The position numbers and the translations under genes are program-made. A stretch of DNA of 64,000 bases from a virus, in the IMG/VR virus record IMGVR_UViG_3300028920_000006, positions 7,843 through 71,842 of that record; one strand, 5' to 3'. The first letter of the stretch is position 1. Each line of letters opens with the position of its first letter. Under the pieces are notes generated by a model. It was not told the origin of the DNA and ran no database searches. It was given only the letters and a program-made list of their open reading frames with translations. This document shows, piece by piece, positions 10,636 to 51,294 of the stretch.

Positions 10636-12081
10636 TCACCTCCTTTCAGTTTGGTCTGTTGTTAAGTCTATACCTTCCTCAGCCCATCTACCTTCCCATT
10701 CGGATGGGTTGTACTTGTAGATCAAGTTCCCTTCGGTGTCCTTGCCCACAGGAAGCATCTTACCAGCATAGAAGTTCCGCGGGTTGCCTCCACTGTTAAG
10801 ATTGTTCCACTGCTCCCTGAGTATATGCCGCAACGTAATGACGGCCCTTTCCCCTGTAGTTCTCCCTATGACACCGACGTGTTCATTCCCCAGCCTGGGA
10901 TCGTCCAGGTATGTAGAATCCTCAGAGAAAATTTGACTGAAGTAGAATTTCATACGCTTGCCGGTTTTGGCATAACGACGTCTGGCTTCTACCAAGAAGT
11001 TTGAAGTCTGGTTTTTATTCCAGTTCAATAGACCGGGGTTCAACCCCGTGTGAGGTAGAGCACAACAGTTCCCACTCATGGACAATTCTTTGAAGTCTTG
11101 GTCATAGTTCGTAAACAGAATCCCATTTTTCTTACAGAACAGGTACAGGCGTTTAGAATGTTCTTCCTTCAGGAGTCGGTTGGCTCGTAAGTATGCTCCG
11201 CGTTGAGGGTAAGAAAGAGCTTTGTAGTGTGCCAACAGGTTCTTTACCCCAATCAGTCTGCCTATATGATCCCACCTGAGCTTCGCATTGCCGGAAGCCC
11301 TTATGTCCACACATAGATATCCAACGGTCAAGCCTCTTATCTTGGCTTCAGCAAGCCTTTCCAACATGTTATCTATCCCAATATCACTGATCCCTATTAT
11401 ATACGGGCGCAGACGTGCTATGGTCCAATATCCCATGTCTCCCAGCATCGCAAGGGTTTCGATTCTCTGGGATGTCGTGGGGGCTCCTATTTCTACTTGT
11501 CGTGCCAGCTTGTCGTCTGGGATTGTGACTGTACCTTGGAACGCAAAATTACCTTGTTTGGCATACCTTTCAAAGACTTTGCGGTACTCCTTGTCCATGA
11601 TCGTTCTGCCTTTGAAACAGAAGACACAAGGGTAATTCATTTCTCCTAGAGCCTCTATGAATCGCAATCCGAACTTGTTCTGCTTTTCAAACCCGCAGAA
11701 AGGGTCCGTAAGTGTACCCCAATGGAGAGGGAACTTCTTACTGTAGAAATGTTCGTACATAGCATCATCATATCTAGAATTGGATTCCCCCTTAATGGCC
11801 TTCATCTGCTTGTCCACGTCAATACCCTGCAGACCTATATCCTTCCCTCTCCATGTAGGGTTCGACATCTTAGATATGTGGGAAAAACAATAGCAGCAGG
11901 ACATCGCACACATATTGTAGCTATCGAAAGCAAGAGGCATGGCACATTCCATCAACAGTGTAGGGATGTGTGCTCCCTTGTATCCTTTCTTGGCCCGTTG
12001 CCCTTTTACTCGCTTCAACCAATAGAAAGAATCCTTAATTACGTCTTGTCCTGGTCCGCTTCTTTTTCTTTTCCTTTTCAT
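10636..12081 (-). CDS. radical SAM protein, spore photoproduct lyase-like
   Basis: DSYNMCAMSCCYCF (CxxxCxxC), TDPF, E.GAPT...R, RLRPYIIG. Confidence 0.8.
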   Translation of the reverse strand: MKRKRKRSGPGQDVIKDSFYWLKRVKGQRAKKGYKGAHIPTLLMECAMPLAFDSYNMCAMSCCYCFSHISKMSNPTWRGKDIGLQGIDVDKQMKAIKGESNSRYDDAMYEHFYSKKFPLHWGTLTDPFCGFEKQNKFGLRFIEALGEMNYPCVFCFKGRTIMDKEYRKVFERYAKQGNFAFQGTVTIPDDKLARQVEIGAPTTSQRIETLAMLGDMGYWTIARLRPYIIGISDIGIDNMLERLAEAKIRGLTVGYLCVDIRASGNAKLRWDHIGRLIGVKNLLAHYKALSYPQRGAYLRANRLLKEEHSKRLYLFCKKNGILFTNYDQDFKELSMSGNCCALPHTGLNPGLLNWNKNQTSNFLVEARRRYAKTGKRMKFYFSQIFSEDSTYLDDPRLGNEHVGVIGRTTGERAVITLRHILREQWNNLNSGGNPRNFYAGKMLPVGKDTEGNLIYKYNPSEWEGRWAEEGIDLTTDQTERR

Positions 12082-12851
12082 ATATACTCCAGTATCCCTC
12101 CTTTGTCAGATTTACTTAAAAAGTCTTTCACTGCTTTTTTGTTGTTCTTATCTAAAACTCTTAGTGCTGCTATCTCACAATACTTTTCCTCGATCTCGAT
12201 GCCGATTGCCTTGCGGCCAAGGTCTTTCGCAGCGCGCAGCGTCGTGCCGCTGCCCATGAAGGGGTCGAGGATAGTGTGCAATTTACCGCCCTTGTGATCC
12301 GCCACGCCAATACACCAAGAAATAACCTCTGTTGGCTTTTGTGTCGGGTGTACACGTGGCTCCTTGCGCCGTCCCGGTTCCTGCAGCATACCGTTCCATC
12401 GGTATTTCACCCGGCGTACCGCCCCAGGCAGGTTGGTCCAAGCTAATTCGCAATCGGCAAAGTCCCCAGTATTATCTTTGTCCCACACTAGCCAGCACGA
12501 CGACGCGGGAACGGGATAATAATTGCCGCCGAAACAAATAGCATGCGCCCCAAGCGTTAATAGTTCCCAAAGCAACCCCCACTCGACCGCCTGTTTATCC
12601 CATTCGTTCGGCCCGTAATCAGTTGCTGCGGCCAGTTTTGTCCGCGAGAGTTGCCGCCGCTGATCGCCAGCGTTAATTCCATACGGCGGATCCGTCAGCA
12701 CCAGATCCACCTTCGGCAAGTCCGGCAGTATCTCGCGGCAATCTCCGTGGTAGATTGTTACCAGTTTGTCTTCGTAGTATGGCTTAGGAAGAGTTCCTTT
12801 TTGTCCGCTTCCTTTTCTTGATGAAGAGTACTTTGTCCTTTTCCTTGTCAT
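12078..12851 (-). CDS. DNA N6-adenine/N4-cytosine methyltransferase (beta class)
   Basis: TDPPY, HPTQKP, LDPFMGSGTT, IGIEIEEKY. Confidence 0.92.
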   Translation of the reverse strand: MTRKRTKYSSSRKGSGQKGTLPKPYYEDKLVTIYHGDCREILPDLPKVDLVLTDPPYGINAGDQRRQLSRTKLAAATDYGPNEWDKQAVEWGLLWELLTLGAHAICFGGNYYPVPASSCWLVWDKDNTGDFADCELAWTNLPGAVRRVKYRWNGMLQEPGRRKEPRVHPTQKPTEVISWCIGVADHKGGKLHTILDPFMGSGTTLRAAKDLGRKAIGIEIEEKYCEIAALRVLDKNNKKAVKDFLSKSDKGGILEYI

Positions 12852-13182
12852 ATCTGATCTTCCCACGTTTGAACTCCCGTAGGATTGCCATGAACGGTCT
12901 TATGTTGGAAACAGAACGGTTTGCTTGATGACTCACATTAAACACTTCTTCAAACATTTTAATGGAATCATCATCAGGGAATACAAGCGTCACTGATCTA
13001 CCACTGGCGGGATGTCTGGCTTCGTACTCAGCTTCTTCCCCTGTATAAGTCGGTAAAGATTCCGGCTTGAGCAGAGTACGTTCCAACTTCCGTATCTCGG
13101 CTTGTGACTTGCACTTCTTCTTAAGCCGATGGAACTTGACCACCCTGCTTTCGGTGTCAACAAAGTCACTGATGCCCATCAC
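12784..13182 (-). CDS. hypothetical protein
   Basis: 132 aa ORF directly after clamp gene. Confidence 0.55.
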   Translation of the reverse strand: MMGISDFVDTESRVVKFHRLKKKCKSQAEIRKLERTLLKPESLPTYTGEEAEYEARHPASGRSVTLVFPDDDSIKMFEEVFNVSHQANRSVSNIRPFMAILREFKRGKIRYDKEKDKVLFIKKRKRTKRNSS

Positions 13183-26159: not shown

Positions 26160-26470
26160 CGTAGCCCTCCACGTAGCGGTCTACGTAGCGGTATTTCTTT
26201 CCATCTTTCTTGCACTGTATTCAGATTGATGCCTGTTAGTAGTGTCGTCGTGCTCCCTTGCCTTGCCATACCAGTCGCCCAAAGCACCCACAATAGCAAA
26301 ACCCTATGCCCTTTGCAAGCCCTAAAAAACGGCCTACAATGGCGCACAAAGGACAAACACAAGCAAAGGTATAGCAACACCTTACCCAAACCCCCGGTCC
26401 GCTGTAGGGCATTGTAGCGTGTTATACGTGTGTGGCTTGTGCAGGGGTTTAACTACAGGGGGTTAACCCA
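26160..26470. promoter_or_regulatory. non-coding element related to 30730-31200
   Basis: Shares 19-mer CGGCCTACAATGGCGCACA (26330-26348 = 30965-30983), CTACGTAG and GGGGTTTAAC; low GA/TC. Confidence 0.5.
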
Positions 26471-26941
26471 TTAAACCACACTGAAGATCTCATGAAATTC
26501 CCCGTCTTCTTTGTAGTACCCACAGGTCACGTTACCATGGTCGTTTACCACGCAGAACGTTTCGTGAGGTTGTACCGTCGGCGGGCATTCCGGTTGATCC
26601 ATTGTGGGCATGTCGTTGAAGACAGGGTTATCTTCCTTTGCGCTCTCGACTGCAATGTACAGCCCAAAGTCACCCTCGTACCACCCCCAATAGTGGTACT
26701 CTCTTTCTTCCAGTGTGTTAAGGTAGTCTTCGGCTTCCTGTACCACATCGAAGAGGACGTAGTGGTCTTCCTGTGTTAAACCCTCTCGTCCTCTTTCCAC
26801 TATGCGGTCTGCGTCCCCTTCGGGATCTTCGTATCCAAAGCCTATAGCCATGGATATCACTTCGATACCAATGTCTTCTGATCCCCTCGCGCTGTCGAAG
26901 TAGCAACCGATCGGCGGTTCACCATAGTCTTCTTTGCTCAT
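26471..26941 (-). CDS. acidic hypothetical early protein
   Basis: GGAGGAG RBS; D/E-rich, VVNDHGNVT. Confidence 0.6.
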   Translation of the reverse strand: MSKEDYGEPPIGCYFDSARGSEDIGIEVISMAIGFGYEDPEGDADRIVERGREGLTQEDHYVLFDVVQEAEDYLNTLEEREYHYWGWYEGDFGLYIAVESAKEDNPVFNDMPTMDQPECPPTVQPHETFCVVNDHGNVTCGYYKEDGEFHEIFSVV

Positions 26942-28148: not shown

Positions 28149-28381
28149 TGCTCACTGCCTTTCTTGTCGTATTCCCGCAGCTTACGTTCTGCCTCTTTCC
28201 ACTTGCGGTCTGCCTCGTACCACTTGCAGTCTGCTTCGTACCACTTACGTTCTGCCTCTTTCCACTTGCGGCCTGCTTCATTCCGCTTGCGGCCTGCTTC
28301 GTTCCGCTTGCAGTCTGCTTCGTACCACTTACGTTCTGCCTCTTCAAGCGCCCTAACCAACTTTTCGCGTTCGTCACTCAT
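28145..28381 (-). CDS. short paralog of the heptad-repeat protein (about 8 units)
   Basis: MSDEREKLV...KLREYD; GAGGAGGT RBS; near-identical 21-bp units to 9554-10063. Confidence 0.7.
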   Translation of the reverse strand: MSDEREKLVRALEEAERKWYEADCKRNEAGRKRNEAGRKWKEAERKWYEADCKWYEADRKWKEAERKLREYDKKGSEQ

Positions 28382-28386
28382 CGTGC

Positions 28387-28707
28387 TCACCTCCTCATTC
28401 GTGCTCTGCATTCCTTGCATCTACCAGTCAGATCGCGTTTATTCCTTTCTTTATTAGTGTTATTGCATCTCTTTTCGTCTTCGTAGTCCAATGGGGATTG
28501 GTGGTTGTATCCCCTCTTGACCATTTCTTTGGCACAGGCGTCGTGTCGCTGGCGTATCCTACCGGGATCAATAAACCCCTTGTCTTGCAAGCGACCTAGC
28601 TTATGCCCGTTCTTGATCCACTCTGCCGCCATATGCTGCTCTACGTGCTCGCCTAGCAGATGCTTTCGGCAGAGATACTTTGGGTGAATCCCAACCCATT
28701 GTCTCAT
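28387..28707 (-). CDS. denV: pyrimidine dimer DNA glycosylase / endonuclease V family
   Basis: MRQW..IHPKYLCRKHLLGEHVE, RHD..EM.KRGYNH.SPL. Confidence 0.78.
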   Translation of the reverse strand: MRQWVGIHPKYLCRKHLLGEHVEQHMAAEWIKNGHKLGRLQDKGFIDPGRIRQRHDACAKEMVKRGYNHQSPLDYEDEKRCNNTNKERNKRDLTGRCKECRARMRR

Positions 28708-28931
28708 CGCTTTCCTCCTTCGTCACGTCTCCTTACACGTATCGCTTCTACCATCGCTTCCCAGACGATGTCGTCGAATGTGGATGCAATGATCTCTTCC
28801 AGGGAAGCTTCTTCGCCGCACATAAGGTCTTCGTTGAGCAGGTCTTGCAGATCGAGCCAATGCTCTTCCAGTGTGCAATCGAATAGTTTTTCCAACCTTG
28901 CCTTTTCTTCCTGGTCTATTTTCATGACCAC
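28704..28931 (-). CDS. small acidic protein (possible DNA mimic)
   Basis: 75 aa, D/E-rich helical. Confidence 0.5.
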   Translation of the reverse strand: MVMKIDQEEKARLEKLFDCTLEEHWLDLQDLLNEDLMCGEEASLEEIIASTFDDIVWEAMVEAIRVRRRDEGGKR

Positions 28932-28954
28932 CCTTTCTTCTTTACACAGTCGTT

Positions 28955-29254
28955 TTAGTCAATCAATATTTCGTTGTCATCTAAGTCCCATACGCGCCCA
29001 TTATAGGAAACACACGCGATGACTTTTTTGCTTTTCGCTTCGGTAATCGTACCCGCGTTTCTGGCAAGATTCCCTGCACCTAACCCATTACGGGTAATCC
29101 ATTCGCTAAATCGTTCGGATGCTTCCTTCAGCGAAGAAACTGTAATGGTCTGGCTGTGAGGGTCTTCTGGTGATTGTCGGTATCCAGAACCATTACCTTG
29201 CCCCCACATCAAGTCTACGTTCTGACCGTGCGCTAGATGAAGTATGTATTTCAT
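28955..29254 (-). CDS. hypothetical early protein
   Basis: GGGAGG RBS; SLKEAS..W..NGLGAGN..VSYNGRVW. Confidence 0.6.
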   Translation of the reverse strand: MKYILHLAHGQNVDLMWGQGNGSGYRQSPEDPHSQTITVSSLKEASERFSEWITRNGLGAGNLARNAGTITEAKSKKVIACVSYNGRVWDLDDNEILID

Positions 29255-29808
29255 CGTTCGTCCTCCCGGCTTGCAACGGTACACTAACTGTAAGTGTGCC
29301 AGTTTACACGCTTAACAATCGCGCTGTAGCGATCGCCGTAGCGGTCGTTGTACCCATCTTCGGTTTAGGTACGCGCGATTGCCAAGTCGTGTGCTCACTG
29401 TTGTTCCTTATCGACTTTCTCATCCCCACATCCATCGTGGTTACGCCCAACACAGTCGTCGCCTCGTAGCCGTCCAGATGACCATCGTCGTCGTAGCCGT
29501 CAACGTAGCCATCTTTCTACGCATCTTCCTTATGCGCTGGTTACACTATGGTCTTCAAAGCAGCACCGCAATCGTCGTGTCTACGGTTCCACGTGTAGTT
29601 TGGCATATCGCTCGTTCACGTGCACTGGTAGTTATACGCGAAGATCTTGGTTGTCGAATCGCTGTATCTACTAACCATATGGCGTCGCCCTGTGTAGTCT
29701 TTCAGCTTGTGGGCTCACTCGTGGGTGTTGTCTACCAGTCGGGTCTCTACCTTGCTATTGTGTACACTGTACACGCAAGGCACTCTTCGTACTGGCCCCT
29801 CACTCTTT

Positions 29809-30127
29809 GTATTGTGCGCATATATGCGCCCTACGGGTTGTCGTTCTCTTCAACCTGTAACCTAAGCACATCTCTCTTCGCGTATTGCCAAAGCCACAGC
29901 CGCTTGCACTGTGGTATTGTGCAATGCACGCGCTAACTCGTGCTCGTCAATTACGTCTTGTTTTGTTGGCGTAAACAACCTGTCGTTAATCTCGCTAATT
30001 GCAATGGCAATTTCTTGAACAGCAAAATTAACATTGTCTTCGTCAAACATAACGTCGTCTTCGGTGTACTTTTTTGCCTTTGCCATACATACCCCCTAAC
30101 TATAGGGCGCATATATGCGCACAATAC
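29809..30127. repeat. perfect 25-bp inverted repeat pair (29809-29833 and 30103-30127) flanking one gene
   Basis: GTATTGTGCGCATATATGCGCCCTA and its exact reverse complement. Confidence 0.85.
29862..30086 (-). CDS. small acidic hypothetical protein
   Basis: GGGGG RBS; 74 aa. Confidence 0.6.
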   Translation of the reverse strand: MAKAKKYTEDDVMFDEDNVNFAVQEIAIAISEINDRLFTPTKQDVIDEHELARALHNTTVQAAVALAIREERCA

Positions 30128-30450
30128 TTTTACCGCCGCATAAGCCGGACGACCGACGATATTAGCCGTTGTGCCAGTGTGTTTGCCCTTAACCCAAGTA
30201 ACCCTAGGCAACCAACACGTAGTAGATCGTCGGGACTTTTATTACCCTGTAGCTGCTAGCCTAGCTGAGAAAGAACGAACGGCTTGTGGGGTATAACCCC
30301 TAAAACCAACGCTAGGGTAAACCGGTTTAACCCATAATGCAAACACTATTCCGGACGATTGCAAGTTTTTGCAACACCCTTGTATATGGTTAAACGCATA
30401 AAGTGTGCCACTCTTTCCCAACTCGGCCGGAAAAGGTATCACTTTCGTAG

Positions 30451-30730
30451 CCGTCCGCGTATCCGTCCGCGTATCCGTATCCGCCTGCGTATCCGTCCGC
30501 GTATCCGTATCCGTCCGCGTATCCGTCCGCGTATCCGTATCCGCCTGCGTATCCGTCCGCGTATCCGCCTGCGTATCCGCCTGCGTATCCGTCGCCATCC
30601 GCGTATCCGCCTGCGTATCCGCCTGCGTATCCGTCCGCGTATCCGCCTGCGTATCCGTCGCCATCCGCGTATCCGCCTGCGTATCCGCCTGCGTATCCGT
30701 CGCCATCCGCGTATCCGCCTGCGTATCCGT
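30451..30730. repeat. tandem array of 6/12/18-bp units built on CGTATCCG (23 copies of CGTATC)
   Basis: Direct inspection; could encode DT-repeat ORF 30242-30706 but no clear RBS. Confidence 0.85.
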
Positions 30731-30810
30731 CTACGTAGCCGTCGCTCGTTGTTTCTACGTAGCACTCACTCGTTGTATCTACGTAGCCGTCGCTCGTTGT
30801 ATCTACGTAC
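30731..30810. repeat. three 24-bp tandem repeats starting with palindrome CTACGTAG
   Basis: CTACGTAGCCGTCGCTCGTTGT-like units. Confidence 0.8.
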
Positions 30811-31212
30811 CACTAAATCGTCGTAAATTGCCAGTGGTTTAACCAGCTTACCCTAATAAAAATTATTATGGCTTTATACACCCCCTACACACCCCCGGTT
30901 TAACCCCCACCACACAAAACGCCCGCCAATACGCCAACACCCCCTGTACACACCCCACCAAAACCGGCCTACAATGGCGCACACGGCCTTAAAACGGCTT
31001 ACCCTATACCTACACATACCCCAATATTGCAGGCCCGTATAGCGCATTGTGGGGCATTACCCCCTACAATGGCCCACAATGCCGTTTAACCGGTTTAACC
31101 CCCCCCGTATAGGGTAGGTATAGGTGCACGGGGGGTGTAACCCCCTACAGGTTAAACTGCGGCCTTGTAGGGGGTGTTGTGGCGGGGTTTAACCTGTAGG
31201 GGGTGTAGGGGC

Positions 31213-31253
31213 AAACAAAAACCCCCTGCTACCCGGTATAGGTAGCAGGGGGT
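31213..31253 (-). terminator. rho-independent terminator
   Basis: 13-bp stem ACCCCCTGCTACC/GGTAGCAGGGGGT followed by TTTTGTTT on minus strand. Confidence 0.8.
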
Positions 31254-31290
31254 AAACCCTGCGGGGTGTGGTTAAACCCCGCGTTACGGG

Positions 31291-31608
31291 TTAGCTGGCC
31301 TTTGCCAGCTTGTGGGCCTTGGGGTTTATTTTGGCACCGTTAGCGGCCAGCTTGCGCAGTGCCAACCGCACGTTGCGGTTAGCCAGCGCCCAGCTTATAG
31401 GTGCAAACCTTTTTGCCACCATGTTAGCCAAGTGGCGGCGGCCCTTGTTACCGTGCTGTGCGTGTATGCTGGCCACGTAAGCCGCAATGGTTTGCTTGCC
31501 GTTGCGCGTACCCTTGGCTTTGCCCTTGCTGGCCTTGGCTTTGCCCTTGCTTGCCTTGTTGCTGGCCTTGTTGCCCTTGTTGCTTGCCTTTTTTGTGCGT
31601 GTTGCCAT
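31291..31608 (-). CDS. 105 aa Lys/Ala-rich basic protein with no Asp/Glu (H1-like)
   Basis: AAGGTG RBS, MATRTKKASNKG..., terminator immediately downstream. Confidence 0.7.
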   Translation of the reverse strand: MATRTKKASNKGNKASNKASKGKAKASKGKAKGTRNGKQTIAAYVASIHAQHGNKGRRHLANMVAKRFAPISWALANRNVRLALRKLAANGAKINPKAHKLAKAS

Positions 31609-31778
31609 TTTATACACCTTTATACAGTGGTTTAACCCATTGTGGGTTAAACCGGTTATACCGCTATGCGCAATACGGTATTGCGCATACCAAACCAACC
31701 AAACTATACCATAAGCGTACCCCTTAACTATGCCATGCCCCGTGGCCTTATACCCGTTACCAGTATGCGTAATGCGGT

Positions 31779-32042
31779 TTAACCCGCCGTTTTGCCCGCC
31801 AGTAGGTTTTGCACTGCTGCACGGGGTGTAGGCCCATACGCCACTACCCAGCCCATACCCGGCGGCCATGCCGCCCACCTGCTTGCACTGGCTGGGCCTA
31901 CCCGGCACAATACCGTGCCGCACTGCGCACACGTTACTGTTGCGTAGTGTGTGTGGCTGTAGGGTACACTGTGCACCCAATAATATTTGTATGGCATACC
32001 GGGCCTGTACATAACGGGTATGCCGTGCGTGTGTTGTACCAT
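31779..32042 (-). CDS. 87 aa Asp/Glu-free protein (CAQC)
   Basis: GGGGG RBS 7 nt before ATG; TAA stop. Confidence 0.55.
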   Translation of the reverse strand: MVQHTHGIPVMYRPGMPYKYYWVHSVPYSHTHYATVTCAQCGTVLCRVGPASASRWAAWPPGMGWVVAYGPTPRAAVQNLLAGKTAG

Positions 32043-32105
32043 GGTTTAACCCCCTGTTTGTGTGTTGTGGTTTAACCTGTTGTATACCGCTATGCGTAAT
32101 GCGGT

Positions 32106-32300
32106 TTAACCCGCCGCTTGCGTGGCCAGCATGGCCTGTACCTGCGCATGGTATGTAGGCGCATACTGTATGGGTTTGGTGTGCCAACCACGGCCTACCC
32201 GTATAATTTTTACCCTGCCCGCGCCCGCAGTTAAACCCGTACCCTTTGCCCTTACCCGCACTACCGTTACCTGCCGTGGTGCCGCAAACAATACCAGCAT
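32106..32300 (-). CDS. 64 aa Asp/Glu-free basic protein
   Basis: GGGGG RBS 5 nt before ATG; first ORF with an RBS after the promoter. Confidence 0.55.
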   Translation of the reverse strand: MLVLFAAPRQVTVVRVRAKGTGLTAGAGRVKIIRVGRGWHTKPIQYAPTYHAQVQAMLATQAAG

Positions 32301-32415
32301 ACACACCCCCTATGTTACCTGCAGGGGCAATACCACATAGCGCAATACCGTATAGCGCAATGCCTACCCCCACCGCGTTAATTAACCTGTATGTTACCCG
32401 TACCAACATGCCGCT

Positions 32416-32445
32416 ATAATAGGTTAAACCAGTTTAACCATGCAA
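32416..32445 (-). promoter_or_regulatory. sigma70-type early promoter TTGCAT-N18-TATTAT with A/T-rich upstream element
   Basis: Spacer is exactly two GGTTWAAC-like 9-mers; sits at the head of the leftward arm. Confidence 0.6.
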
Positions 32446-32802
32446 GTACTTTTTGCATAAAAACAAAGAATAGTTGTAAACCCCTACGGTTTAACCGTTT
32501 ACAAGGAAAGAAATAATTATTTATACACCCTAATAATTTGTAGCTATTTACAATACATGTAAATACATGGTATAAACCACGCCGTAGCGCAAGCTGTAGC
32601 CAAGCTGTAGCCAAGTGTATAAATAAATGCAAAAAATACATAACCGGTTAAACCATGTACAAGCATCGTCACCACTAGGCTATACCCCTACCCGTAGCAT
32701 ACCCAATAATAGTAGCGTGTGTGTGGGCCACAGCCCCACACAACACCCCAAAACTATGTTGCTGCACAGCCCTAACCATGCCCCGGTTAAACCGCAAAAC
32801 TA

Positions 32803-32850
32803 CCCCCATTACAAATACGTTATACACCCCCATTACAAATACTTTATACA
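32803..32850. repeat. 24-bp tandem duplication
   Basis: CCCCCATTACAAATAC(G/T)TTATACA twice. Confidence 0.75.
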
Positions 32851-32980
32851 CCTTAATACGCACGGCAGTTTGGGTTTGCGTGGTGGGGGTCGCTCCCCCC
32901 TCTACAACCATGATCTAGAAATGAGGATAAGTAACCGTGACCTCAATATCATCATCAAAAAAAATGGTAGGATGTGTCAT

Positions 32981-33637
32981 ATGAAACATATAGTGGGATT
33001 TTCAGGGGGGAAAGACAGCACGGCTATTCTACACTTGCCTCCGATATGTGATCTCCCCAGAGAAGACACTATTCTCCTCCACTTTGAATGTGACTGGGAT
33101 TTCCCTCAGATGGTGGATCATTTGAAACTGGTAGAAGAGAAAACAGGGCTGGAAATCGTAAGGGTACGCTACTATCGTCATTTCAATGAACAGCTTGGGG
33201 TTTTCGGTTGGCCCAGATCAAATGGTGGATGGTGTACAGCGTGCAAACAGATGACATGCCAAAAATATATTCGAGGGGTCAGAGGTCCCAAGACAGAGTA
33301 TGTAGGTTTTGCAGCGGATGAAGTACACAGGACGGAAACCAAATGGGTGAAGGAGAGAAAGTGGCCTATCTGCTTTCCGTTGATTGATTTAGGTATGAAT
33401 GAGAATGATGCCCTTTCGTTGTGTTTGGGGTTGGGATATGATTGGGATGGGTTGTATGATATCTTTGATAGAGTCTCTTGTTGGAACTGTGCCAAAGCTG
33501 GAAATCACAAGAGAGACAAGATTAAGAAGCATTTCCCAGAACTGGAACTAGAGTGGAAGAGGTTGGACATTATTGCAGCAAGAGCAGAGCAGGGAATAAA
33601 CAACCGGAGAGTTCGTACTCGGAGGTCCAGACAGTGA
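32981..33637 (+). CDS. PAPS reductase-like (PP-loop) protein
   Basis: FSGGKDS, WCTACK, GFAADE..R, FPL, RVSCWNC. Confidence 0.85.
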   Translation: MKHIVGFSGGKDSTAILHLPPICDLPREDTILLHFECDWDFPQMVDHLKLVEEKTGLEIVRVRYYRHFNEQLGVFGWPRSNGGWCTACKQMTCQKYIRGVRGPKTEYVGFAADEVHRTETKWVKERKWPICFPLIDLGMNENDALSLCLGLGYDWDGLYDIFDRVSCWNCAKAGNHKRDKIKKHFPELELEWKRLDIIAARAEQGINNRRVRTRRSRQ

Positions 33638-34275
33638 AGCGTACCCGTAGATCATCAAAAAAGAAAGCGAAACCCGAACCCGTAGAACCCGCTGAGCTAC
33701 TGAAACCCGAGGATAGACCCACACCTCCCAACTACGGGCCAGAGGCGAAGAGCTCATATAGGGAAATGCTGTTTGCGAATGCTTTCATAAGGCGGAACTT
33801 TAATGCGACCGATGCTGCCAAGGATGCAGGGTATAATGGCACTAGGGGGTCGTTGGCTGTATTGGGGTCAAGGCTGTTGAAGAAGGAGACTGTTAAGGGT
33901 CTTATTCAGAAGGCGTTGAATAAGCAGAACTACAGGTTTCAATTGGACAGTGATTTTGTTCTACAGAGTCTTATGGAAATTGTAGAACGGTGTATGCAGA
34001 AAGAGCCGATACGGGATAGGAAAGGGAGGCCTACGGGACAGTGGAAGTTTGCGGATAGAGGAGCGAATAAAGCCCTTGAGCTCTTAGGTAAGCATCTGAA
34101 GTTGTGGACGGAGCGTATGGAGATAACTGGTCCTGGGGGAGGTCCGATACAGTTAGCTCATTATGATCTGTCCAAGTTGGGTGCGGGAGAGCTGAAGACG
34201 TTGAGGAGGTTGCTGAAGAAGGCGAAGAAGGATGAGAGTGATATGGAAAGAGCTCTTAAGGGGAAAGTAGCGTGA
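33634..34275 (+). CDS. terS: terminase small subunit
   Basis: FNATDAAKDAGY..GSRLL, ALELLGKHL; GGAGGT RBS, GTG start. Confidence 0.85.
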   Translation: MKRTRRSSKKKAKPEPVEPAELLKPEDRPTPPNYGPEAKSSYREMLFANAFIRRNFNATDAAKDAGYNGTRGSLAVLGSRLLKKETVKGLIQKALNKQNYRFQLDSDFVLQSLMEIVERCMQKEPIRDRKGRPTGQWKFADRGANKALELLGKHLKLWTERMEITGPGGGPIQLAHYDLSKLGAGELKTLRRLLKKAKKDESDMERALKGKVA

Positions 34276-34409
34276 TGAGAGCAACCGTACCTAATATTCC
34301 CAAACCGCCTCCACCTCCAAAGAAGGAGAAACCTTCGTTGAGGAAGTCATTGATCAAAGCGGGTGTAGTTCCGCCTGAACCACCTCCGAATGAGTCAGTG
34401 AGGGTATGA
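34275..34409 (+). CDS. 44 aa proline-rich peptide
   Basis: Fills terS-terL gap with TGATG and ATGA overlaps. Confidence 0.4.
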   Translation: MRATVPNIPKPPPPPKKEKPSLRKSLIKAGVVPPEPPPNESVRV

Positions 34410-36163
34410 CCACAACCAGAAGAATACGAACCCGCAGATGCGGGAAGAGCAAGAGAGGGTTCAAGCGTAAGAGTATGCACTGGAAGAGTGACTATCTGCG
34501 GTTTAACGCTGAGAGCAGAGATGGTCCAGATATACTCGAACCGCTTTTGAGGTCCGAACCGATGCCTGAGGATGAAGACGAACTTTACCTCCCGGGCCTT
34601 GATGCTGTTGAACTTGCTCTGTGTGAAGTGTCCCTTTTGCAATTCCTTCAAAAAGTATGGCATACTGTTGAACCCAAGGAATTCGTATCTGGATTCCATA
34701 TAGAGGCAATATGCGACCATCTCGAAGCAATGGCTAATCTTCAAATACGCAAGCTGATAATCAATATCCCTCCGCGGTACATGAAGAGTCTTGGTTGCAG
34801 TGTGTTTTTCTGTCCGTGGATATGGTTGAAGGATCCTTCAAAGAGGTTCATGTATGCTTCGTATGCTCAGACCCTTAGTATAAGGGATAGCAGGAAATCC
34901 CGCCTTGTAATCCAATCCAAAGAGTATCAGCGTATGATACTGAGCAAATATCCTGACTTCAAGTTCAGTGGTGACCAGAATGCCAAGATGCGATTTGACA
35001 ATACGTATAATGGGTATAGGATCGCAACTTCGGTAGGAGGTATGACTACTGGTGAAGGCGGTGACTTCAACATCATAGATGACCCCCACAATGTAGTGGA
35101 CGGTGAGAGTGATGCCAAGAGGCTTGAGGCTTTGTTATGGATTGATGAAGCAATGAGCACACGGCGAGACTCACCGGAGGAAACGGCCTACCTGCTTATT
35201 ATGCAGAGGATCCACGAGAATGACATGACAGGTCATCTACTGGCGAAAGAAGCAGGGTGGGAACACTTGTGCCTCCCCCATAGGTATGAGGGGATGAACA
35301 GGTGTCATACGTCACTTAACTTCAAAGACCCCCGTAAGAAAGAAGGCGAACTGCTCTGGCCCACACATTGGACAGAGGCAGCGACCAAGGACGTAGAGGC
35401 TGAAATGTCTCAGTATGCTATCGCGGCTCAGTTGTATCAGCGTCCCAGTCCGCGAGGCGGTGGTATGATTCCCATATCCAAGTTCAACTTTGCCCACATT
35501 ATAGATCGTACCAAGATAGTATCATCTGTACGGTACTGGGACAAAGCAGCTACGGAAGCCGGAGGTAAGCGGACGGCCGGGGTGTTGATGCACAAGATGA
35601 GCAATGGTAGGTTCCTGATAGAAGACATTGTAAAAGGCCAATGGTCCACCGGGAACAGAGAAGCTCGTATAGAACAAGTGGCTACCTTGGATGCATCCCG
35701 TACAGTGGCTAGGGTAGAACAGATCGGCAAACCGGCACGCAAGGTCCCTGTGAAAATATGGATTGAGCAGGAGCCGGGTAGTGGAGGCAAAGAATCTGCG
35801 GAGAACACCATAACACGCCTCGCAGGTTTTGTGGTACACGCTGACAGGGTTACAGGTGCAAAAGAAGACCGTGCAGAACCCTTTGCAGTACAGGTAGAGC
35901 ACGGGATGGTAGATCTGTATATACCACAAAACAAGAAGGGGAATCTCAAGGATACTTGGGTAGGCGGTGACGATGGTTTTCTTCATGAGTGTGAATTGTT
36001 TCCTATGGGTAAGTTCAGCGATCAGGTGGATGCTGCGTCAGGAGCGTTCAACAAGCTGACCGGCAAGAAGAAGATTGCCCGGACGTGGGGTACAAGAAAG
36101 AACAAAGGTGTAGTTCGGAGGCGGAGGCAACGGGGGAAAGTCACTTCAGTGGCTCAGGCATAA
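34406..36163 (+). CDS. terL: terminase large subunit
   Basis: INIPPRYMKS, IIDDPH, IMQRIH, WDKA, EQEPGSGGK, DQVDA. Confidence 0.93.
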   Translation: MTTTRRIRTRRCGKSKRGFKRKSMHWKSDYLRFNAESRDGPDILEPLLRSEPMPEDEDELYLPGLDAVELALCEVSLLQFLQKVWHTVEPKEFVSGFHIEAICDHLEAMANLQIRKLIINIPPRYMKSLGCSVFFCPWIWLKDPSKRFMYASYAQTLSIRDSRKSRLVIQSKEYQRMILSKYPDFKFSGDQNAKMRFDNTYNGYRIATSVGGMTTGEGGDFNIIDDPHNVVDGESDAKRLEALLWIDEAMSTRRDSPEETAYLLIMQRIHENDMTGHLLAKEAGWEHLCLPHRYEGMNRCHTSLNFKDPRKKEGELLWPTHWTEAATKDVEAEMSQYAIAAQLYQRPSPRGGGMIPISKFNFAHIIDRTKIVSSVRYWDKAATEAGGKRTAGVLMHKMSNGRFLIEDIVKGQWSTGNREARIEQVATLDASRTVARVEQIGKPARKVPVKIWIEQEPGSGGKESAENTITRLAGFVVHADRVTGAKEDRAEPFAVQVEHGMVDLYIPQNKKGNLKDTWVGGDDGFLHECELFPMGKFSDQVDAASGAFNKLTGKKKIARTWGTRKNKGVVRRRRQRGKVTSVAQA

Positions 36164-36175
36164 GGAGATCTAACC

Positions 36176-36736
36176 ATGGCAATAGTATCACCAAGTAAGG
36201 AAGCGGGTAAGTTGATACAGGAGATCCACGATCTGGTAATGAAGCATACGGGGGTGGATTTCAGTACTGATGTATGTACGTTGAATCTGCATTGTGGTGT
36301 GAAGGAAGAATGGAACAAGATGACTGTGGTCTACAATGGTAAGGTTGAGACAGAACACGGTCGCCATTCACAGGGACAGCAGATCAACATATGGATGCTG
36401 CTCAAAACAGATGAGGCTCTTTACAACTGGTTGTTGGAAATTGCAGAGTTGGTGAAACGGTGGGCCAAATTTAATCCAGGGGCAGAATTGTATGAAGCCG
36501 TCATAAACATCCCATATGAAGATGTTGTCATGATGAGTGTCAATGTCTATGCACAGGATCCTATTGAAGTAGAAATCCCGGACTATACTGACTGTAAGCA
36601 CAGAAACCCTGAGAGGCCGGGAGGGTGTGACCACGGATATGTGAATTGTGAGCAAGGCAGACTATGTCTTTCTTACGAAGGGGGAGACCGTCCTGTTGAC
36701 AAGGCGGTGGAAAAGGAGATAGCTAGTCCGCAATGA
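36176..36736 (+). CDS. hypothetical protein
   Basis: AGGAG RBS; 186 aa. Confidence 0.6.
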   Translation: MAIVSPSKEAGKLIQEIHDLVMKHTGVDFSTDVCTLNLHCGVKEEWNKMTVVYNGKVETEHGRHSQGQQINIWMLLKTDEALYNWLLEIAELVKRWAKFNPGAELYEAVINIPYEDVVMMSVNVYAQDPIEVEIPDYTDCKHRNPERPGGCDHGYVNCEQGRLCLSYEGGDRPVDKAVEKEIASPQ

Positions 36737-36894
36737 AACTGATTTGTGATAGTTGTGAACACGAGTTCTACCGGCATCCGATACAATATTACAAGGTGCC
36801 GGAGATAAAGGTCTGCCCCAAGTGTAAGGAGGGGCAAGGGATACCGGCCGAGGAGAAGCCAGATGGCACAAGCGATCAAAAGAATAAGGACTAG
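36733..36894 (+). CDS. small Zn-ribbon protein (53 aa)
   Basis: CDSC..CPKC; ATGA overlap; manual translation. Confidence 0.45.
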   Translation: MKLICDSCEHEFYRHPIQYYKVPEIKVCPKCKEGQGIPAEEKPDGTSDQKNKD

Positions 36895-38374
36895 ACATTC
36901 CGGAGGCACTAATCCGGAGAAACTGCTGAAGCAGTTGGATAAGAGTGTCCTCTCCCGGATGCAAGCTCTTGCTTCGGCTGTCACATCCCGAGCACAGTTG
37001 CAATCCAAGCTGGGATTGTCCTACGAAGGGGACAGGAATCTCTATACGGCGCTGGGATACCCCACGTCGTTGACGTTCTCGCGCTATAACAGCCGCTTCG
37101 CTAGACAGGACATAGCGCGTAGGGTTATCACATGCTTCCCGGATGCAACGTGGAAGTCCAAACCCATTATTCGCGATGACCTAGAGAGTAAGCAAAGCGC
37201 CTTTGAGAAAGCCGTCAAAGACCTTGTGGACAACCATCAGCTTTACCACTATCTGAACAGGTTGGATATTCTCAGCCGTATAGGTCAGTATGGTGTGATG
37301 TTGATAGGGGTGTCCGGGCTTAGTGGCGAAAAAGGATTGGCGAAACCTGTATTGCAATCTCGTGGTAAGAAGGGGAAGGGTTACAATCTGCTGTACCTCC
37401 AACCATACAGCCAAGAACATGCGAACATTATAGAACTGGTGAAGGATGTTAAAGATGAGCGGTTTGGTCTCCCCAACTTGTATGAGGTCACCGTCAGTGT
37501 ACAGGACACCAACATCAGTTCTGTTACCAGTGGTCAAGTTGTTACGTCAGAGAGCCGTACTATCCCCGTCCATTGGAGTCGCTTGATCCATGTCACACCT
37601 GATGCAATGGAAAGTGATGTGTATGGTACACCCATCCTCAAGGATATCTACAACAGGCTACAGGATCTGGAGTTGGTAGCAGGTGGTTCCAGTGAAATGT
37701 ATTGGCGAGGGGCTTTTCCCGGCATCAGCTTTGAAGCAGAGGGGGATGTTGAGTTACCCAGCGAAAGTGACATGGAAGATGAGATTGAGGATTATATCCA
37801 CGGTGTATCTCGCTATCTACGTCTCCAAGGGGTGAAGGCCAATCAGCTTGAACCCAACATCGTACCGGCCAAGGATCAGATTGACATTATCATTTCACTC
37901 ATAGCAGGTGCCAAGGGTATTCCAAAGAGGATCCTTATGGGCAGTGAGCGAGGTGAACTTGCTTCCACACAGGACAGGGCGAGTTGGGATGATCGTGTGG
38001 AGGAACGCCGTGTCAACTTTGCTGAGCCTATGATACTAAGACCTGTCATCGACAGATTTATAGATCTGGGTATACTACCTGAGCCGGTGGAGGGTACATA
38101 TACGGTAACATGGCCTGATATCAATTCGCTCACGCTACAGGAGAAGAGCGAAGTTGCTGAACGGTTTGCCAAGTCACTCAAGGCGTATATCGAAGCAGGT
38201 GTGGATGAGATTATCACTCCTGTGTCATTCCTTGTTGACTTTGTGGGTGTGGAGCGCAGCAAGGCTGAGGAAATGGTTGCTGAGGCCATGGACGAATTGG
38301 GTCGCGAAGACGCCGACCGTCGTAAGTTGAAAGAAATTGACGAGGAAGAAGAAGACGAAGAAGAGGAAGTGTGA
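36863..38374 (+). CDS. portal protein (DUF1073-like)
   Basis: After terL; FGLP..Y, VHWSRLIH, GIPKRIL.GSERGELAS..D. Confidence 0.85.
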   Translation: MAQAIKRIRTRHSGGTNPEKLLKQLDKSVLSRMQALASAVTSRAQLQSKLGLSYEGDRNLYTALGYPTSLTFSRYNSRFARQDIARRVITCFPDATWKSKPIIRDDLESKQSAFEKAVKDLVDNHQLYHYLNRLDILSRIGQYGVMLIGVSGLSGEKGLAKPVLQSRGKKGKGYNLLYLQPYSQEHANIIELVKDVKDERFGLPNLYEVTVSVQDTNISSVTSGQVVTSESRTIPVHWSRLIHVTPDAMESDVYGTPILKDIYNRLQDLELVAGGSSEMYWRGAFPGISFEAEGDVELPSESDMEDEIEDYIHGVSRYLRLQGVKANQLEPNIVPAKDQIDIIISLIAGAKGIPKRILMGSERGELASTQDRASWDDRVEERRVNFAEPMILRPVIDRFIDLGILPEPVEGTYTVTWPDINSLTLQEKSEVAERFAKSLKAYIEAGVDEIITPVSFLVDFVGVERSKAEEMVAEAMDELGREDADRRKLKEIDEEEEDEEEEV

Positions 38375-38550
38375 ACAAGATTGGTTACTGTACAGAGTAT
38401 GACAAGCGTATGGTGCTGATACGTATACAGGAACTCCGCCTCACTGGTCTGTTTGTTATACCGTGGGGACATTCCGGTTGGGTAAGACGTACCTTTACGG
38501 ATGCAGTGACCGGTGAGATGATCAAAGACATTTTTCCAATACTGAACTGA
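38371..38550 (+). CDS. hypothetical protein (59 aa)
   Basis: Fills portal-head gap, GTGA overlap. Confidence 0.4.
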   Translation: MNKIGYCTEYDKRMVLIRIQELRLTGLFVIPWGHSGWVRRTFTDAVTGEMIKDIFPILN

Positions 38551-38552
38551 TT

Positions 38553-39674: not shown

Positions 39675-39676
39675 CC

Positions 39677-39853
39677 ATGACCCTTGACCCGAAAAAGAAT
39701 AAACCCATGACGAAGCACAATGAAGGCGACGTTAATCAAGCGGCTAGGAGAAGCATGGGGAAGCGGACAATGATGCATGATCCCATTGCCAATGCGAACT
39801 TCACAGAAGGCTGGGAAGAATATTGTAAACACAATCCGCAAGCTAAGAGGTGA
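39677..39853 (+). CDS. hypothetical protein (58 aa)
   Basis: GAGGG RBS; fills gap. Confidence 0.4.
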   Translation: MTLDPKKNKPMTKHNEGDVNQAARRSMGKRTMMHDPIANANFTEGWEEYCKHNPQAKR

Positions 39854-39856
39854 TAT

Positions 39857-51287: not shown

Positions 51288-51294
51288 AACAACC

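What the first reader, a model, noticed from the sequence alone, without database searches (positions are those of the whole stretch)
30823..32889. A complete early transcription unit written without the dinucleotide GA/TC
Seen: from 30823 to 32468 there is no GA and no TC. Equal base frequencies would give about 200, and AG/CT, TT and CC remain common. Only 5 occur from 32468 up to a sharp return to normal composition at 32890. The tract is functional-looking DNA: promoter, three genes, terminator. Every signal avoids GA: the -35 is TTGCAT rather than TTGACA, RBSs are GGGGG or AAGGTG rather than AGGAGG, all stops are TAA, and no Asp/Glu codons (GAN) are used. It heads the early arm at the strand divergence. 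Inference: this is the first-injected (pre-early) DNA under absolute selection against a 2-nt motif. Option (a): it evades host systems that read GA/TC, such as many restriction sites (GATC, GANTC, GAATTC), Dnd GAAC/GTTC, DarT TNTC ADP-ribosylation or TC-specific deaminases like DddA, until inhibitors are made. Option (b): the phage modifies its own DNA at GA/TC and must leave this part readable by host RNA polymerase. I know of no described case of total dinucleotide exclusion in a phage leading region.
Basis: partly seen in the sequence, partly recalled or inferred. Interest (0 to 1): 0.95.

Follow-up and report, generated by a model that had tools for sequence, protein, structure and literature searches.

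The report
Phage gene cassette without GA/TC steps
An uncultured marine-sediment phage keeps a 1.65-kb control region and gene free of the two-letter DNA step GA/TC on both strands, even dropping all aspartate and glutamate from the protein, so something in the infected cell must read or mark exactly that step.

Summary
Window 30823-32467 (1645 nt) has no GA and no TC. About 207-225 are expected, and simulated genomes give gaps of at most 78 nt. Only five occur up to 32889. An independent assembly of the one public run that holds the tract reproduces it without a difference.

The tract lies at the strand divergence of a complete 71.8-kb phage genome, just upstream of terS/terL. It holds:
- a weak promoter;
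- a 372-codon open frame with no Asp or Glu, whose last 105 codons are the only clearly coding part;
- a strong terminator;
- 400 nt of structured non-coding DNA;
- 14 of the 16 clustered GGTTWAACC sites (genome total 18).

Selection acts on the DNA itself: 42 synonymous GA/TC codons are expected in the frame and none is present.

What reads GA/TC is not identified.
- My leading guess (0.38) is an island exempt from the phage's own dinucleotide-specific DNA mark. None of the five enzyme families tested is encoded.
- Evasion of a host reader by a pioneer cassette is nearly as likely.
- "First-injected" could not be tested.
- "Three genes" is not supported.

The protein has no homologue, and no close relative of the phage was available.

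Earlier notes of this scan report similar islands in other phage genomes. I found no such case in print.

The parts
30823..32467 (.). Tract with no GA and no TC on either strand (1645 nt)
   Evidence: 0 observed against 207-225 expected. The longest gap in 100 simulated genomes is 78 nt.
32468..32889 (.). Nearly GA/TC-free, AT-rich zone reaching the first rightward gene. It holds 5 GA/TC in 422 nt, direct repeats (an 11-nt unit x3.3 at 32584-32619 and a 24-nt unit x2.1 at 32802-32852) and copies of GGTGTATAA.
32416..32445 (-). Promoter-like site TTGCAT-N18-TATTAT. Its -10 ends 6 nt before the ATG at 32409, which implies a leaderless or near-leaderless message. It overlaps the inverted repeat ATGCAA...TTGCAT.
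   Evidence: Read. The scan did not list it, because the -35 matches only 3 of 6. This part is inference.
31291..32409 (-). 372-codon open frame with no Asp or Glu. It has a hydrophobic N-terminus, a Gly/His/Thr-rich middle and a Lys-rich C-terminus. It is an orphan.
   Evidence: Frame: 6 stops in this frame of the tract against 25 and 33 in the other minus frames. Open length: 380 codons against 1000 dinucleotide shuffles with mean 132 and maximum 339. Homologues: none. Families: none in Pfam or PHROGs. Coding signal in the first 267 codons is weak.
31291..31608 (-). Best-supported gene: 105 aa with its own RBS (AAGGTG, 7 nt before the ATG). It has a disordered Lys/Ala/Ser tail and a three-helix bundle, and ends in TAA.
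   Evidence: positive coding score only here; pLDDT 65; helices 41-52, 57-68, 73-90. The fold search gave no significant match (best E 0.6). No homologue was found.
31221..31253 (-). Intrinsic terminator with a 14-bp stem (9 GC pairs) and a T run, 37 nt after the stop codon
30823..31220 (.). Structured non-coding DNA. It holds an 18-bp perfect inverted repeat (31140-31157 / 31187-31204) and a plus-strand promoter-like site TACACA-N17-TACAAT at 30947-30975.
   Evidence: One search folded 30823-31295 (473 nt) as minus-strand RNA: z = -4.51 against 100 shuffles, none of which folded as well.
30324..32793 (.). Cluster of 16 exact GGTTWAACC sites, in both orientations, out of 18 in the genome. Fourteen lie inside the GA/TC-free and nearly free zones. 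Two (30324 and 30836) lie at or beyond the left edge.
   Evidence: 17 sites in the window against 0.41 expected, and at most 3 in any of 100 shuffles.. No extended consensus was seen around the 9-mer.
30446..30825 (.). Tandem array (12/30/42-nt units CGTATCCGYCYG, then a 24-nt unit x4) abutting the left edge of the tract. It is rich in TC and has no GA on the plus strand.
26275..26483 (+). Second, small GA/TC-poor element with 2 internal GA/TC in 208 nt. It shares the 19-mer CGGCCTACAATGGCGCACA with 30965-30983. It carries a promoter-like site TTGCAA-N16-TACAAT at 26313-26340 and is preceded by CTACGTAG repeats.
   Evidence: The promoter was read by eye.
12078..12866 (-). Orphan beta-class N6/N4 DNA methyltransferase. 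It is the only recognisable DNA-base-modifying enzyme in the genome. It is a candidate reader, not a shown one.
   Evidence: The nearest solved relatives are CcrM (E 3.4e-16) and DpnA (E 1.5e-14).
32981..33637 (+). PAPS-reductase-like PP-loop protein, the first gene to the right of the tract. It is context only and its role is unknown.
   Evidence: PF01507, E 1.6e-9; phrog_424, E 7e-32.

Best explanation
The tract is a self-contained "pioneer" control-and-gene cassette at the divergence of the early and late arms. It consists of a promoter, a gene for a basic protein that looks DNA-binding, a terminator, a structured non-coding segment and a cluster of binding-site-like GGTTWAACC motifs.

Purifying selection at the DNA level keeps the cassette free of the step GA/TC on both strands. 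A factor that acts on double-stranded DNA at that dinucleotide therefore cannot touch it.

Under that model:
- the roughly 9,500 GA/TC sites in the rest of the genome are marked as protection;
- this island, and a 200-nt mini-element at 26.3 kb, stay ordinary DNA;
- host RNA polymerase and sequence-specific proteins can therefore use them on the incoming, marked genome.

Shown: the exclusion, its DNA-level nature, and the anatomy of the cassette.
Inferred: that a modification exists, which enzyme makes it, and why the island must be exempt.
For: Selection acts on the DNA, not on the protein.
- Given the frame's own amino-acid content and the codon usage of 15 reference genes, 42.0 synonymous GA/TC codons are expected. 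None is present.
- At the reference rate of 0.142, about 53 codon junctions should read GA/TC. None does.
- Asp plus Glu make up 0% here against 13.3% in the reference genes.

The exclusion is symmetric and goes beyond the message.
- Both GA and TC are absent on the same strand.
- The tract runs from 23 nt upstream of the -35 to 400 nt past the terminator.

The rest of the genome does not avoid the step.
- Observed/expected is 1.11 for GA and 1.08 for TC.
- GATC reaches 0.78 of expectation and TCGA 0.59.

A second GA/TC-poor element contains a good sigma-70-like promoter.

Phage enzymes with exactly this dinucleotide specificity are in print.
- The DpdA of phage iggy has a strict GA motif (PMC10484667; listing and passages).
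- The T-dioxygenase 5mYOX97 prefers NTC (PMC13229309, section 8).
- Thymidine hypermodification shows a TG/TC context (PMC6449724, passages).

The iggy genome itself has five GA/TC-free patches of 100 nt or more, the longest 171 nt. By the annotation tables, two of them are intergenic. In 100 Markov simulations the mean number of such patches was 0.04, and no simulation had five.
Against: None of the five tested enzyme families for GA- or TC-context modification is encoded. Pfam TGT/DpdA, QueC, ThyA-type thymidylate synthase, ThyX and Tet_JBP each gave 0 matches at E <= 1 (E <= 10 for Tet_JBP). 5-HMUDK was not searched.

The other candidates are weak.
- The methyltransferase is an ordinary beta-class enzyme of unknown specificity.
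- The neighbouring SPL-like radical SAM gene is a common part of such replication modules. A clamp gene was found in the same locus in 31 of 56 loci and a matching methyltransferase in only 3 of 56.
- Eight of nine full genomes that carry this radical SAM gene show no island.

Known phage DNA marks do not block host RNA polymerase (recalled, for T4). It is therefore unclear why a whole gene body, and not just the binding sites, must be exempt.

All other early genes contain GA/TC and yet must also be expressed.

The iggy patches are ten times shorter than this tract and could reflect local composition.

No modification data exist for this phage.
Confidence: 0.38

Rival explanations
1. Evasion of a host reader. 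A host defence acts on double-stranded DNA at sites that contain GA/TC. Candidates are a nuclease or set of restriction systems, a TC-specific deaminase, a DNA ADP-ribosyltransferase, or a CRISPR system with a TC-type PAM. The cassette is the unit that must survive intact long enough to be expressed, and its product then protects the rest of the genome. One version adds that this DNA enters first and that the adjoining tandem array acts as an injection stop, as in T5.
For: - A whole transcription unit is site-free, not only its binding sites. This fits "must be expressed before it is hit".
- There are precedents for leading regions without recognition motifs.
  - Murciavirus phages escape a Type I system when the motif is missing from the first-injected region (PMC12455610, abstract).
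  - In T5, only sites or targets in the first-step-transfer region are sensitive to EcoRI and to CRISPR (bioRxiv 10.1101/866236, abstract and section 26).
- The tract abuts a dense repeat array. It lies where cos or pac sites usually are, just upstream of terS.
- No known GA/TC-modifying enzyme family is encoded by the phage.
Against: - I know of no nuclease with a 2-bp specificity (recalled). A host with one would have to protect all of its own GA/TC sites.
- The rest of the genome shows no avoidance at all.
- The cassette protein has no homologue and no resemblance to any anti-defence family.
- The mini-element at 26.3 kb lies 4.5 kb inside the early arm.
- E. coli-type DnaA boxes, a hallmark of the T5 stop signal, do not cluster here. 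There are 25 matches with at most 1 mismatch in the window against 16.7 expected. One lies in the tract and none in the array.
- The packaging genes resemble headful-type ones (the link to headful packaging is recalled). That would give no fixed leading end.
Confidence: 0.3
2. RNA-level or single-strand-level reader. An enzyme attacks GA in single-stranded RNA (CmdT-like) or TC in single-stranded DNA exposed during transcription. The cassette is transcribed on both strands, so both transcripts or both displaced strands must lack the word.
For: - CmdT ADP-ribosylates adenine in GA dinucleotides of single-stranded RNA and blocks translation (PMC11618068, passages).
- Promoter-like sites exist on both strands of the tract: on the minus strand at 32445-32416 and on the plus strand at 30947-30975.
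- The ribosome-binding sites avoid GGAG and GAGG.
Against: - A single reader of RNA GA does not require UC to be absent from the same message, yet both are absent.
- Transcription of both strands across all 1.65 kb is unproven.
- The exclusion covers 400 nt beyond a strong terminator and the region upstream of the promoter.
Confidence: 0.08
3. No selection for absence. The tract is either a by-product of low-complexity or repeat composition, or of TC-targeted hypermutation, or it is an assembly or synthetic artefact.
For: - The tract has many short repeats and a motif cluster.
- TT and AA are mildly enriched, at 1.26 and 1.28.
- The tandem array at its left edge is not bridged by the independent contigs.
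Against: - The tract is not a simple repeat. It carries a 380-codon open frame, an RBS and a terminator.
- Its G+C content (53.7%) is higher than that of the genome, which is the opposite of what C-to-T decay would give.
- An independent assembler reproduces 30748-35000 with 0 differences and links the tract to terS/terL.
- Dinucleotide statistics exclude chance.
Confidence: 0.04

Closest known systems
Site-poor leading regions of phages: the T5 first-step-transfer DNA and the early-injected region of Murciavirus/T7-like phages
   Same: Both show local absence of a recognised word, limited to a defined early region while the rest of the genome keeps it. Both sit at one edge of the early genes. 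In T5 a complex repeat region adjoins the site-poor DNA (10.1101/866236, abstract; PMC12455610, abstract).
   Different: In those phages the avoided words are 6-8-bp restriction or Type I motifs, a few sites in all. Here a 2-nt step is avoided, about 210 expected sites, and the protein's amino-acid content is rewritten as a result. Entry order is unknown here. There is no cluster of DnaA boxes and no identified anti-defence gene.
Dinucleotide-context DNA modification by phages: iggy DpdA (dPreQ0 at GA), T-dioxygenase 5mYOX97 (NTC), and 5-hmdU-derived hypermodification at TG/TC
   Same: The same two-letter word, GA on one strand and TC on the other, is the unit those enzymes recognise on double-stranded DNA after replication (PMC10484667, PMC13229309, PMC6449724). 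The iggy genome has more GA/TC-free patches than chance would give.
   Different: None of the five tested families (TGT/DpdA, QueC, ThyA, ThyX, Tet_JBP) is encoded here; 5-HMUDK was not searched. The parts of those papers that I read (passages and one section, not the whole texts) do not mention a kilobase-scale exempt island. The iggy patches are 171 nt or shorter.
CmdTAC defence (CmdT ADP-ribosylates A in GA of single-stranded RNA)
   Same: It is a known antiviral enzyme whose specificity is the dinucleotide GA (PMC11618068).
   Different: It reads RNA, so only the message strand would need to lose GA. Here the exclusion is symmetric and extends outside the transcript.

Membership tests
Motif avoidance in a first-injected (leading) region | Local absence of the recognised word while the rest of the genome keeps it | tested here: met
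   0 in 1645 nt, against observed/expected of 1.08-1.11 elsewhere.
Motif avoidance in a first-injected (leading) region | The region is the first DNA to enter the cell (fixed genome end) | not testable with these tools
   Only contigs of one run were available. No read ends could be seen. The IMG/VR 122-bp end repeat lies inside a gene and says nothing about the physical ends.
Motif avoidance in a first-injected (leading) region | The avoided word matches a restriction-type recognition site (4-8 bp) | tested here: not met
   Every GA and every TC is absent, whatever its context. Other palindromes such as GGCC, GCGC, CATG and TTAA are present in the tract.
Motif avoidance in a first-injected (leading) region | The region encodes an anti-defence function | tested here: inconclusive
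   The only protein is an orphan. It has no Pfam or PHROG family, no homologue among 1.84 billion representatives and no significant fold match. The PADLOC library was not searched.
T5-type two-step injection | A stop signal made of repeats and palindromes with an ordered set of DnaA boxes | tested here: not met
   A repeat array and palindromes are present. With at most 1 mismatch, TTATCCACA has 1 match in the tract and 0 in the array. The consensus used is the E. coli one and was recalled; the host is unknown.
T5-type two-step injection | Long terminal repeat that carries the pre-early genes | tested here: inconclusive
   There is a 2.25-fold depth step across the array: 178.6 for the contig covering 28315-30480 against 79.5 for the contig covering 30748 to about 41278. 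This could be a collapsed repeat or a second strain. Its boundaries were not mapped.
Dinucleotide-context phage DNA modification (DpdA / 5mYOX / 5-HMUDK pathways) | The genome encodes the modifying enzyme family | tested here: not met
   Pfam TGT, QueC, Thymidylat_synt, Thy1 and Tet_JBP each gave 0 matches in the complete genome. 5-HMUDK was not searched, because I did not know its accession.
Dinucleotide-context phage DNA modification (DpdA / 5mYOX / 5-HMUDK pathways) | Virion DNA carries a non-canonical base at GA/TC | not testable with these tools
   No native-DNA signal data or nucleoside analysis exists for this uncultured phage.
CmdT-type RNA GA targeting | Strand-specific loss of GA from the message only | tested here: not met
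   GA and TC are both absent on the same strand. The plus-strand GA gap is 2038 nt and the plus-strand TC gap is 1845 nt.

The most novel reading that the evidence does not exclude
This cassette would be one instance of a general, undescribed rule. A phage whose DNA is marked (or attacked) at one dinucleotide writes a single pioneer transcription unit in a reduced alphabet lacking that step, so the unit is the only ordinary, readable DNA on the incoming genome.

In this phage the GA/TC-directed system would itself be new, since DpdA, QueC, ThyA/ThyX-based and TET/JBP-type enzymes are all absent. Candidates are the orphan beta-class methyltransferase, the PAPS-reductase-like PP-loop protein next to the island, or the nine-gene glycan island. 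The acid-free, basic, three-helix protein together with its 16 GGTTWAACC sites would form the bootstrap switch.
Probability: 0.25. Interest if true: 0.92.

Novelty: new variant of a known kind. Interest (0 to 1): 0.8.

Why it matters
Total local exclusion of a dinucleotide is far stronger than any restriction-site avoidance in print. It is strong enough to remove two amino acids from a protein. It implies a reader of a two-letter DNA step that matters greatly during the first minutes of infection.

Either way the question becomes directly testable. One can use native sequencing, or recode the island in a cultivable relative.

Earlier notes of this scan suggest that the feature recurs in unrelated phages. 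That would make it a class rather than a curiosity.

Tried and rejected
Homology of the tract and its protein.
- No DNA match in the phage collection.
- The 372-aa frame found only itself among 1918 candidates and among 1.84 billion representatives.
- The 105-aa protein scored with 0 of 12 candidates and with 0 PDB sequences at E <= 10.
- No Pfam or PHROG family. No Rfam family above threshold; the best was anti-hemB at 18.9 bits against a gathering score of 49.5. No tRNA.
- Structure models were weak: pLDDT 41.5 for the 372-aa frame and 65.1 for the 105-aa protein. Foldseek found nothing at E <= 0.001. The weak rows were winged-helix-like proteins.

Relatives of the phage.
- TerL in IMG/VR gave 8 loci. 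Most are 28-48% identical. One is 84% identical, but its contig starts inside terL.
- The PAPS-reductase-like protein gave 9 loci, not syntenic with this genome.
- TerS gave 1 locus.
- TerL in metagenome contigs gave 21 loci, at most 55% identical.
- None of these loci has a dinucleotide-free tract. Conservation of the tract therefore could not be tested.
- A scan for paired GGTTWAACC motifs gave 47 unrelated loci.

Radical SAM lead.
- The single protein found no IMG/VR locus. An alignment of 24 of the 79 homologues found 56 loci.
- No GA/TC gap exceeds 139 nt within 10 kb of the gene.
- I read 9 whole records and half of a tenth, 701,480 nt in all. I chose them by length and completeness from the 24 records of 50 kb or more.
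- Only one of them (G021) has a GA/TC-poor control region: AT-rich, about 950 nt, 16 GA/TC, longest gap 281 nt.
- I therefore dropped the idea that the radical SAM/methyltransferase pair is the GA/TC modifier.

Other checks.
- The 233-aa neighbour is a sliding clamp.
- RNA evidence: no RNA holder is listed for the tract.
- Contigs cannot show read ends or termini.
The long metagenome contigs carrying radical SAM homologues could therefore not be read. I used the IMG/VR route instead.
- Supplementary files of papers were not opened. Motif tables in the supplements of PMC10484667 and PMC13229309 may bear on the dinucleotide specificities quoted here.
Full report
OBSERVATION

The window has 8450 GA/TC positions, about one every 7.6 nt. 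One gap of 1647 nt runs from 30821 to 32468. It is followed by gaps of 156 and 221 nt up to 32890. Every other gap is 87 nt or less.

The 1645-nt tract has an ordinary base composition (A342 C492 G391 T420). It should hold 207 GA/TC by that composition, or 225 at the rate of the rest of the window. That gives log10 P(0) of about -105.

None of the other nine strand-symmetric dinucleotide classes has a gap above 391 nt. One hundred Markov simulations of the genome give longest gaps with a mean of 57.5 nt and a maximum of 78 nt.

- 149 nt in 86 loci (791,393 nt);
- 139 nt in 56 loci (1,004,097 nt);
- 55-133 nt in nine of ten further records and 281 nt in the tenth (701,480 nt).

AG and CT are present but depleted (0.55 and 0.65 of expectation). 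TA and CC are enriched (1.64 and 1.44).

The exclusion is symmetric. Plus-strand GA is absent from 30430 to 32468, and plus-strand TC from 30821 to 32666.

IS THE SEQUENCE REAL?

The window is bases 7843-71842 of a 71,842-nt IMG/VR virus record. The record has a 122-nt end overlap and is rated complete.

One public run holds the tract, a marine sediment metagenome. It may be the window's own source sample. In that run's Logan assembly a 10,533-nt contig covers 30748-35000 with no difference. The tract is therefore physically joined to the PAPS-reductase-like gene, terS and terL.

The tandem array to the left of the tract is not bridged by the listed pieces. The contig on its far side has 2.25 times the depth, 178.6 against 79.5. 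I could not explain this depth step.

CONTEXT

Leftward genes, on the minus strand, form a T4-like replication and recombination set:
- RecA/UvsX-like and UvsY-like proteins;
- a clamp loader with an intein, and a sliding clamp;
- a split PolA and a UDG-exonuclease fusion;
- a DnaB-like helicase, a primase and a replication initiator;
- an SNF2 helicase and a sigma-like factor;
- a pyrimidine-dimer glycosylase;
- an SPL-like radical SAM protein and a beta-class DNA methyltransferase.

Rightward genes start at about 32981:
- a PAPS-reductase-like protein;
- TerS and TerL (at best 38% identical to Roseobacter and Rhizobium phages);
- portal, a Mu-F-like protein and capsid;
- a large glycan-synthesis island;
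- tail genes.

The tract fills the divergent control region between the two arms.

ANATOMY, READ ON THE MINUS STRAND

- Promoter. The site is TTGCAT-N18-TATTAT (32445-32416). Its -10 ends 6 nt before the ATG at 32409. The -35 is weak, and the scan tool did not list the site.
- Open frame. One frame is open from 32409 to 31291.
  - It has 6 stops across the tract, against 25 and 33 in the other two minus frames.
  - Its 380 open codons exceed all 1000 dinucleotide-preserving shuffles (mean 132, maximum 339).
  - A codon-position score is clearly positive only over the last 105 codons.
- The 105-codon unit. It has its own RBS (AAGGTG) and start at 31608 and ends in TAA. A 14-bp-stem terminator follows.
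The safest description is therefore one well-supported 105-aa gene that forms the C-terminus of a significantly long 372-codon frame.
- Beyond the terminator. About 400 nt of GA/TC-free DNA follow, rich in inverted repeats. Folding 30823-31295 as RNA gives z = -4.5. This stretch includes a plus-strand promoter-like site.
- Left edge. The tract ends exactly where a TC-rich tandem array begins.
- GGTTWAACC sites. The exact 9-mer occurs 17 times in the window against 0.41 expected. Sixteen copies lie in 30324-32793, in both orientations, inside and outside the frame.
- Mini-element. A smaller element at 26275-26483 shares a 19-mer and other blocks with 30.9 kb. It is itself GA/TC-poor and carries TTGCAA-N16-TACAAT.

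THE SELECTION ACTS ON DNA

The frame has no Asp and no Glu, against 13.3% in 15 reference genes. Given its own amino-acid content, 42 codons would be expected to be GA/TC-containing synonyms, and none is. About 53 codon junctions would be expected to read GA/TC, and none does.

This is not a feature of the genome as a whole. Outside the tract, GA and TC stand at 1.11 and 1.08 of expectation, and no GA/TC-containing palindrome is strongly avoided.

Decay by TC-to-TT mutation is unlikely, because the tract is richer in G+C than its surroundings.

THE PROTEIN

It has no relative anywhere and no family. The 105-aa part is modelled as a disordered Lys/Ala/Ser tail followed by three helices (pLDDT 65). 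Foldseek gave no significant match. Its weak rows are mostly winged-helix-type proteins. A DNA-binding role is a guess.

WHAT READS GA/TC?

Three properties point to a reader that acts on duplex DNA rather than on the message:
- the exclusion is symmetric on both strands;
- it extends outside the transcript;
- its edges are sharp.

Phage enzymes with exactly this specificity are published:
- iggy DpdA acts at GA (PMC10484667);
- 5mYOX97 acts at NTC (PMC13229309, section 8);
- thymidine hypermodification occurs at TG/TC (PMC6449724).

I scanned the iggy genome. It has five GA/TC-free patches of 100-171 nt, two of them intergenic. Simulations expect 0.04 such patches. This supports the idea of exempt patches in a modifying phage, but at a tenth of the scale seen here.

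Against the self-modification reading in this phage:
- TGT/DpdA, QueC, ThyA, ThyX and Tet_JBP are all absent.
- The only base-modifying enzyme is a beta-class methyltransferase whose nearest solved relatives are CcrM and DpnA.
- The radical SAM gene next to it is a common replication-module gene and is rarely paired with a methyltransferase (3 of 56 loci).
- Eight of nine complete genomes that carry this radical SAM gene have no island. The ninth has a 950-nt AT-rich control region with only 16 GA/TC.

The rival reading is that a host reader is evaded until the cassette's product acts. It has good precedents for leading regions (PMC12455610; T5, 10.1101/866236). It also explains why a whole unit is site-free. 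Its weaknesses are these:
- it has no support from entry order, which I could not test;
- E. coli-type DnaA boxes, typical of the T5 stop signal, are not clustered here.

An RNA-level reader such as CmdT (GA in single-stranded RNA, PMC11618068) does not explain the loss of both words on one strand.

COMPARISON AND NOVELTY

My searches found no paper that describes a kilobase-scale dinucleotide-free island or the resulting acid-free proteins. They covered only the held library and a few word sets.

Earlier AI notes of this scan report similar GA/TC-free transcription units in at least a dozen other uncultured phage genomes. Some of those genomes carry thymidine-hypermodification genes. I treat these notes as leads. 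None concerns a relative of this phage.

I file the feature as an extreme new variant of motif avoidance. It is not a member of the T5/T7 leading-region class or of any known modification system, because defining features of each were either not met or not testable.

VERDICT

- The tract is a functional cassette under DNA-level selection.
My odds are 0.38 for exemption from the phage's own mark, 0.30 for host evasion, 0.08 for an RNA or single-strand reader and 0.04 for an artefact or by-product. The remainder is unknown.
- Interest 0.8.

Noticed in passing
window 28315-30480 versus 30748-41278: The mean k-mer depth of the independent contigs differs 2.25-fold (178.6 against 79.5) across the tandem array. 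This could be a collapsed terminal repeat, a second strain that shares the segment, or noise.
   Followed up: no
window 43873-54452: A large glycan-synthesis island lies inside the structural operon. It holds a 1224-aa protein with GT29 sialyltransferase-like repeats, a GT32/GT8-like protein, three methyltransferases, two sulfotransferase-like proteins, a radical SAM enzyme and a UDP-glucose dehydrogenase. Whether it decorates the capsid or the DNA is unknown.
   Followed up: partly
window 10636-12081: The SPL-like ('DNA repair photolyase') radical SAM gene is widespread in phage replication modules. There are 79 homologues and 56 IMG/VR loci. A sliding-clamp gene was found in the same locus in 31 of the 56. 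Its function in phages appears to be unstudied.
   Followed up: partly
G021 (IMG/VR record behind L142), about 34254-35201: A phage that shares the radical SAM gene (43% identity) has an AT-rich non-coding control region of about 950 nt with only 16 GA/TC. That is 0.017 per nt against 0.131 genome-wide. The region is full of TTATAACATGTTACA-like repeats.
   Followed up: partly
phage Iggy MN029011: 42699-42870, 27693-27854, 39299-39456, 60073-60225, 3178-3286: This GA-modifying phage has five GA/TC-free patches of 108-171 nt, against 0.04 expected. By the annotation tables, two are intergenic and three lie inside small hypothetical genes.
   Followed up: partly
whole genome outside the tract: The six-letter palindromes GGTACC (1 against 15.3 expected), CAGCTG (0 against 9.0) and GTTAAC (1 against 8.5) are strongly under-represented. 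This looks like ordinary restriction-site avoidance.
   Followed up: no
window 3327-5426 and 7509-8759: The clamp-loader gene carries an intein. A family-4 UDG domain is fused to the PolA 3'-5' exonuclease.
   Followed up: no
many genes, for example window 412-1509, 10636-12081 and 34406-36163: Many unrelated proteins start with a short Lys/Arg-rich tag such as MKRKRTKKKK or MTTTRRIRTRR. It is unexplained.
   Followed up: no
window 30875, 31611, 32522, 32821, 32845 (minus strand) and 32615 (plus strand): The word GGTGTATAA recurs five times on the minus strand (AGTGTATAA once on the plus strand), and only in and around the tract. One copy forms the RBS of the 105-aa gene. It may be a promoter or operator element.
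   Followed up: partly
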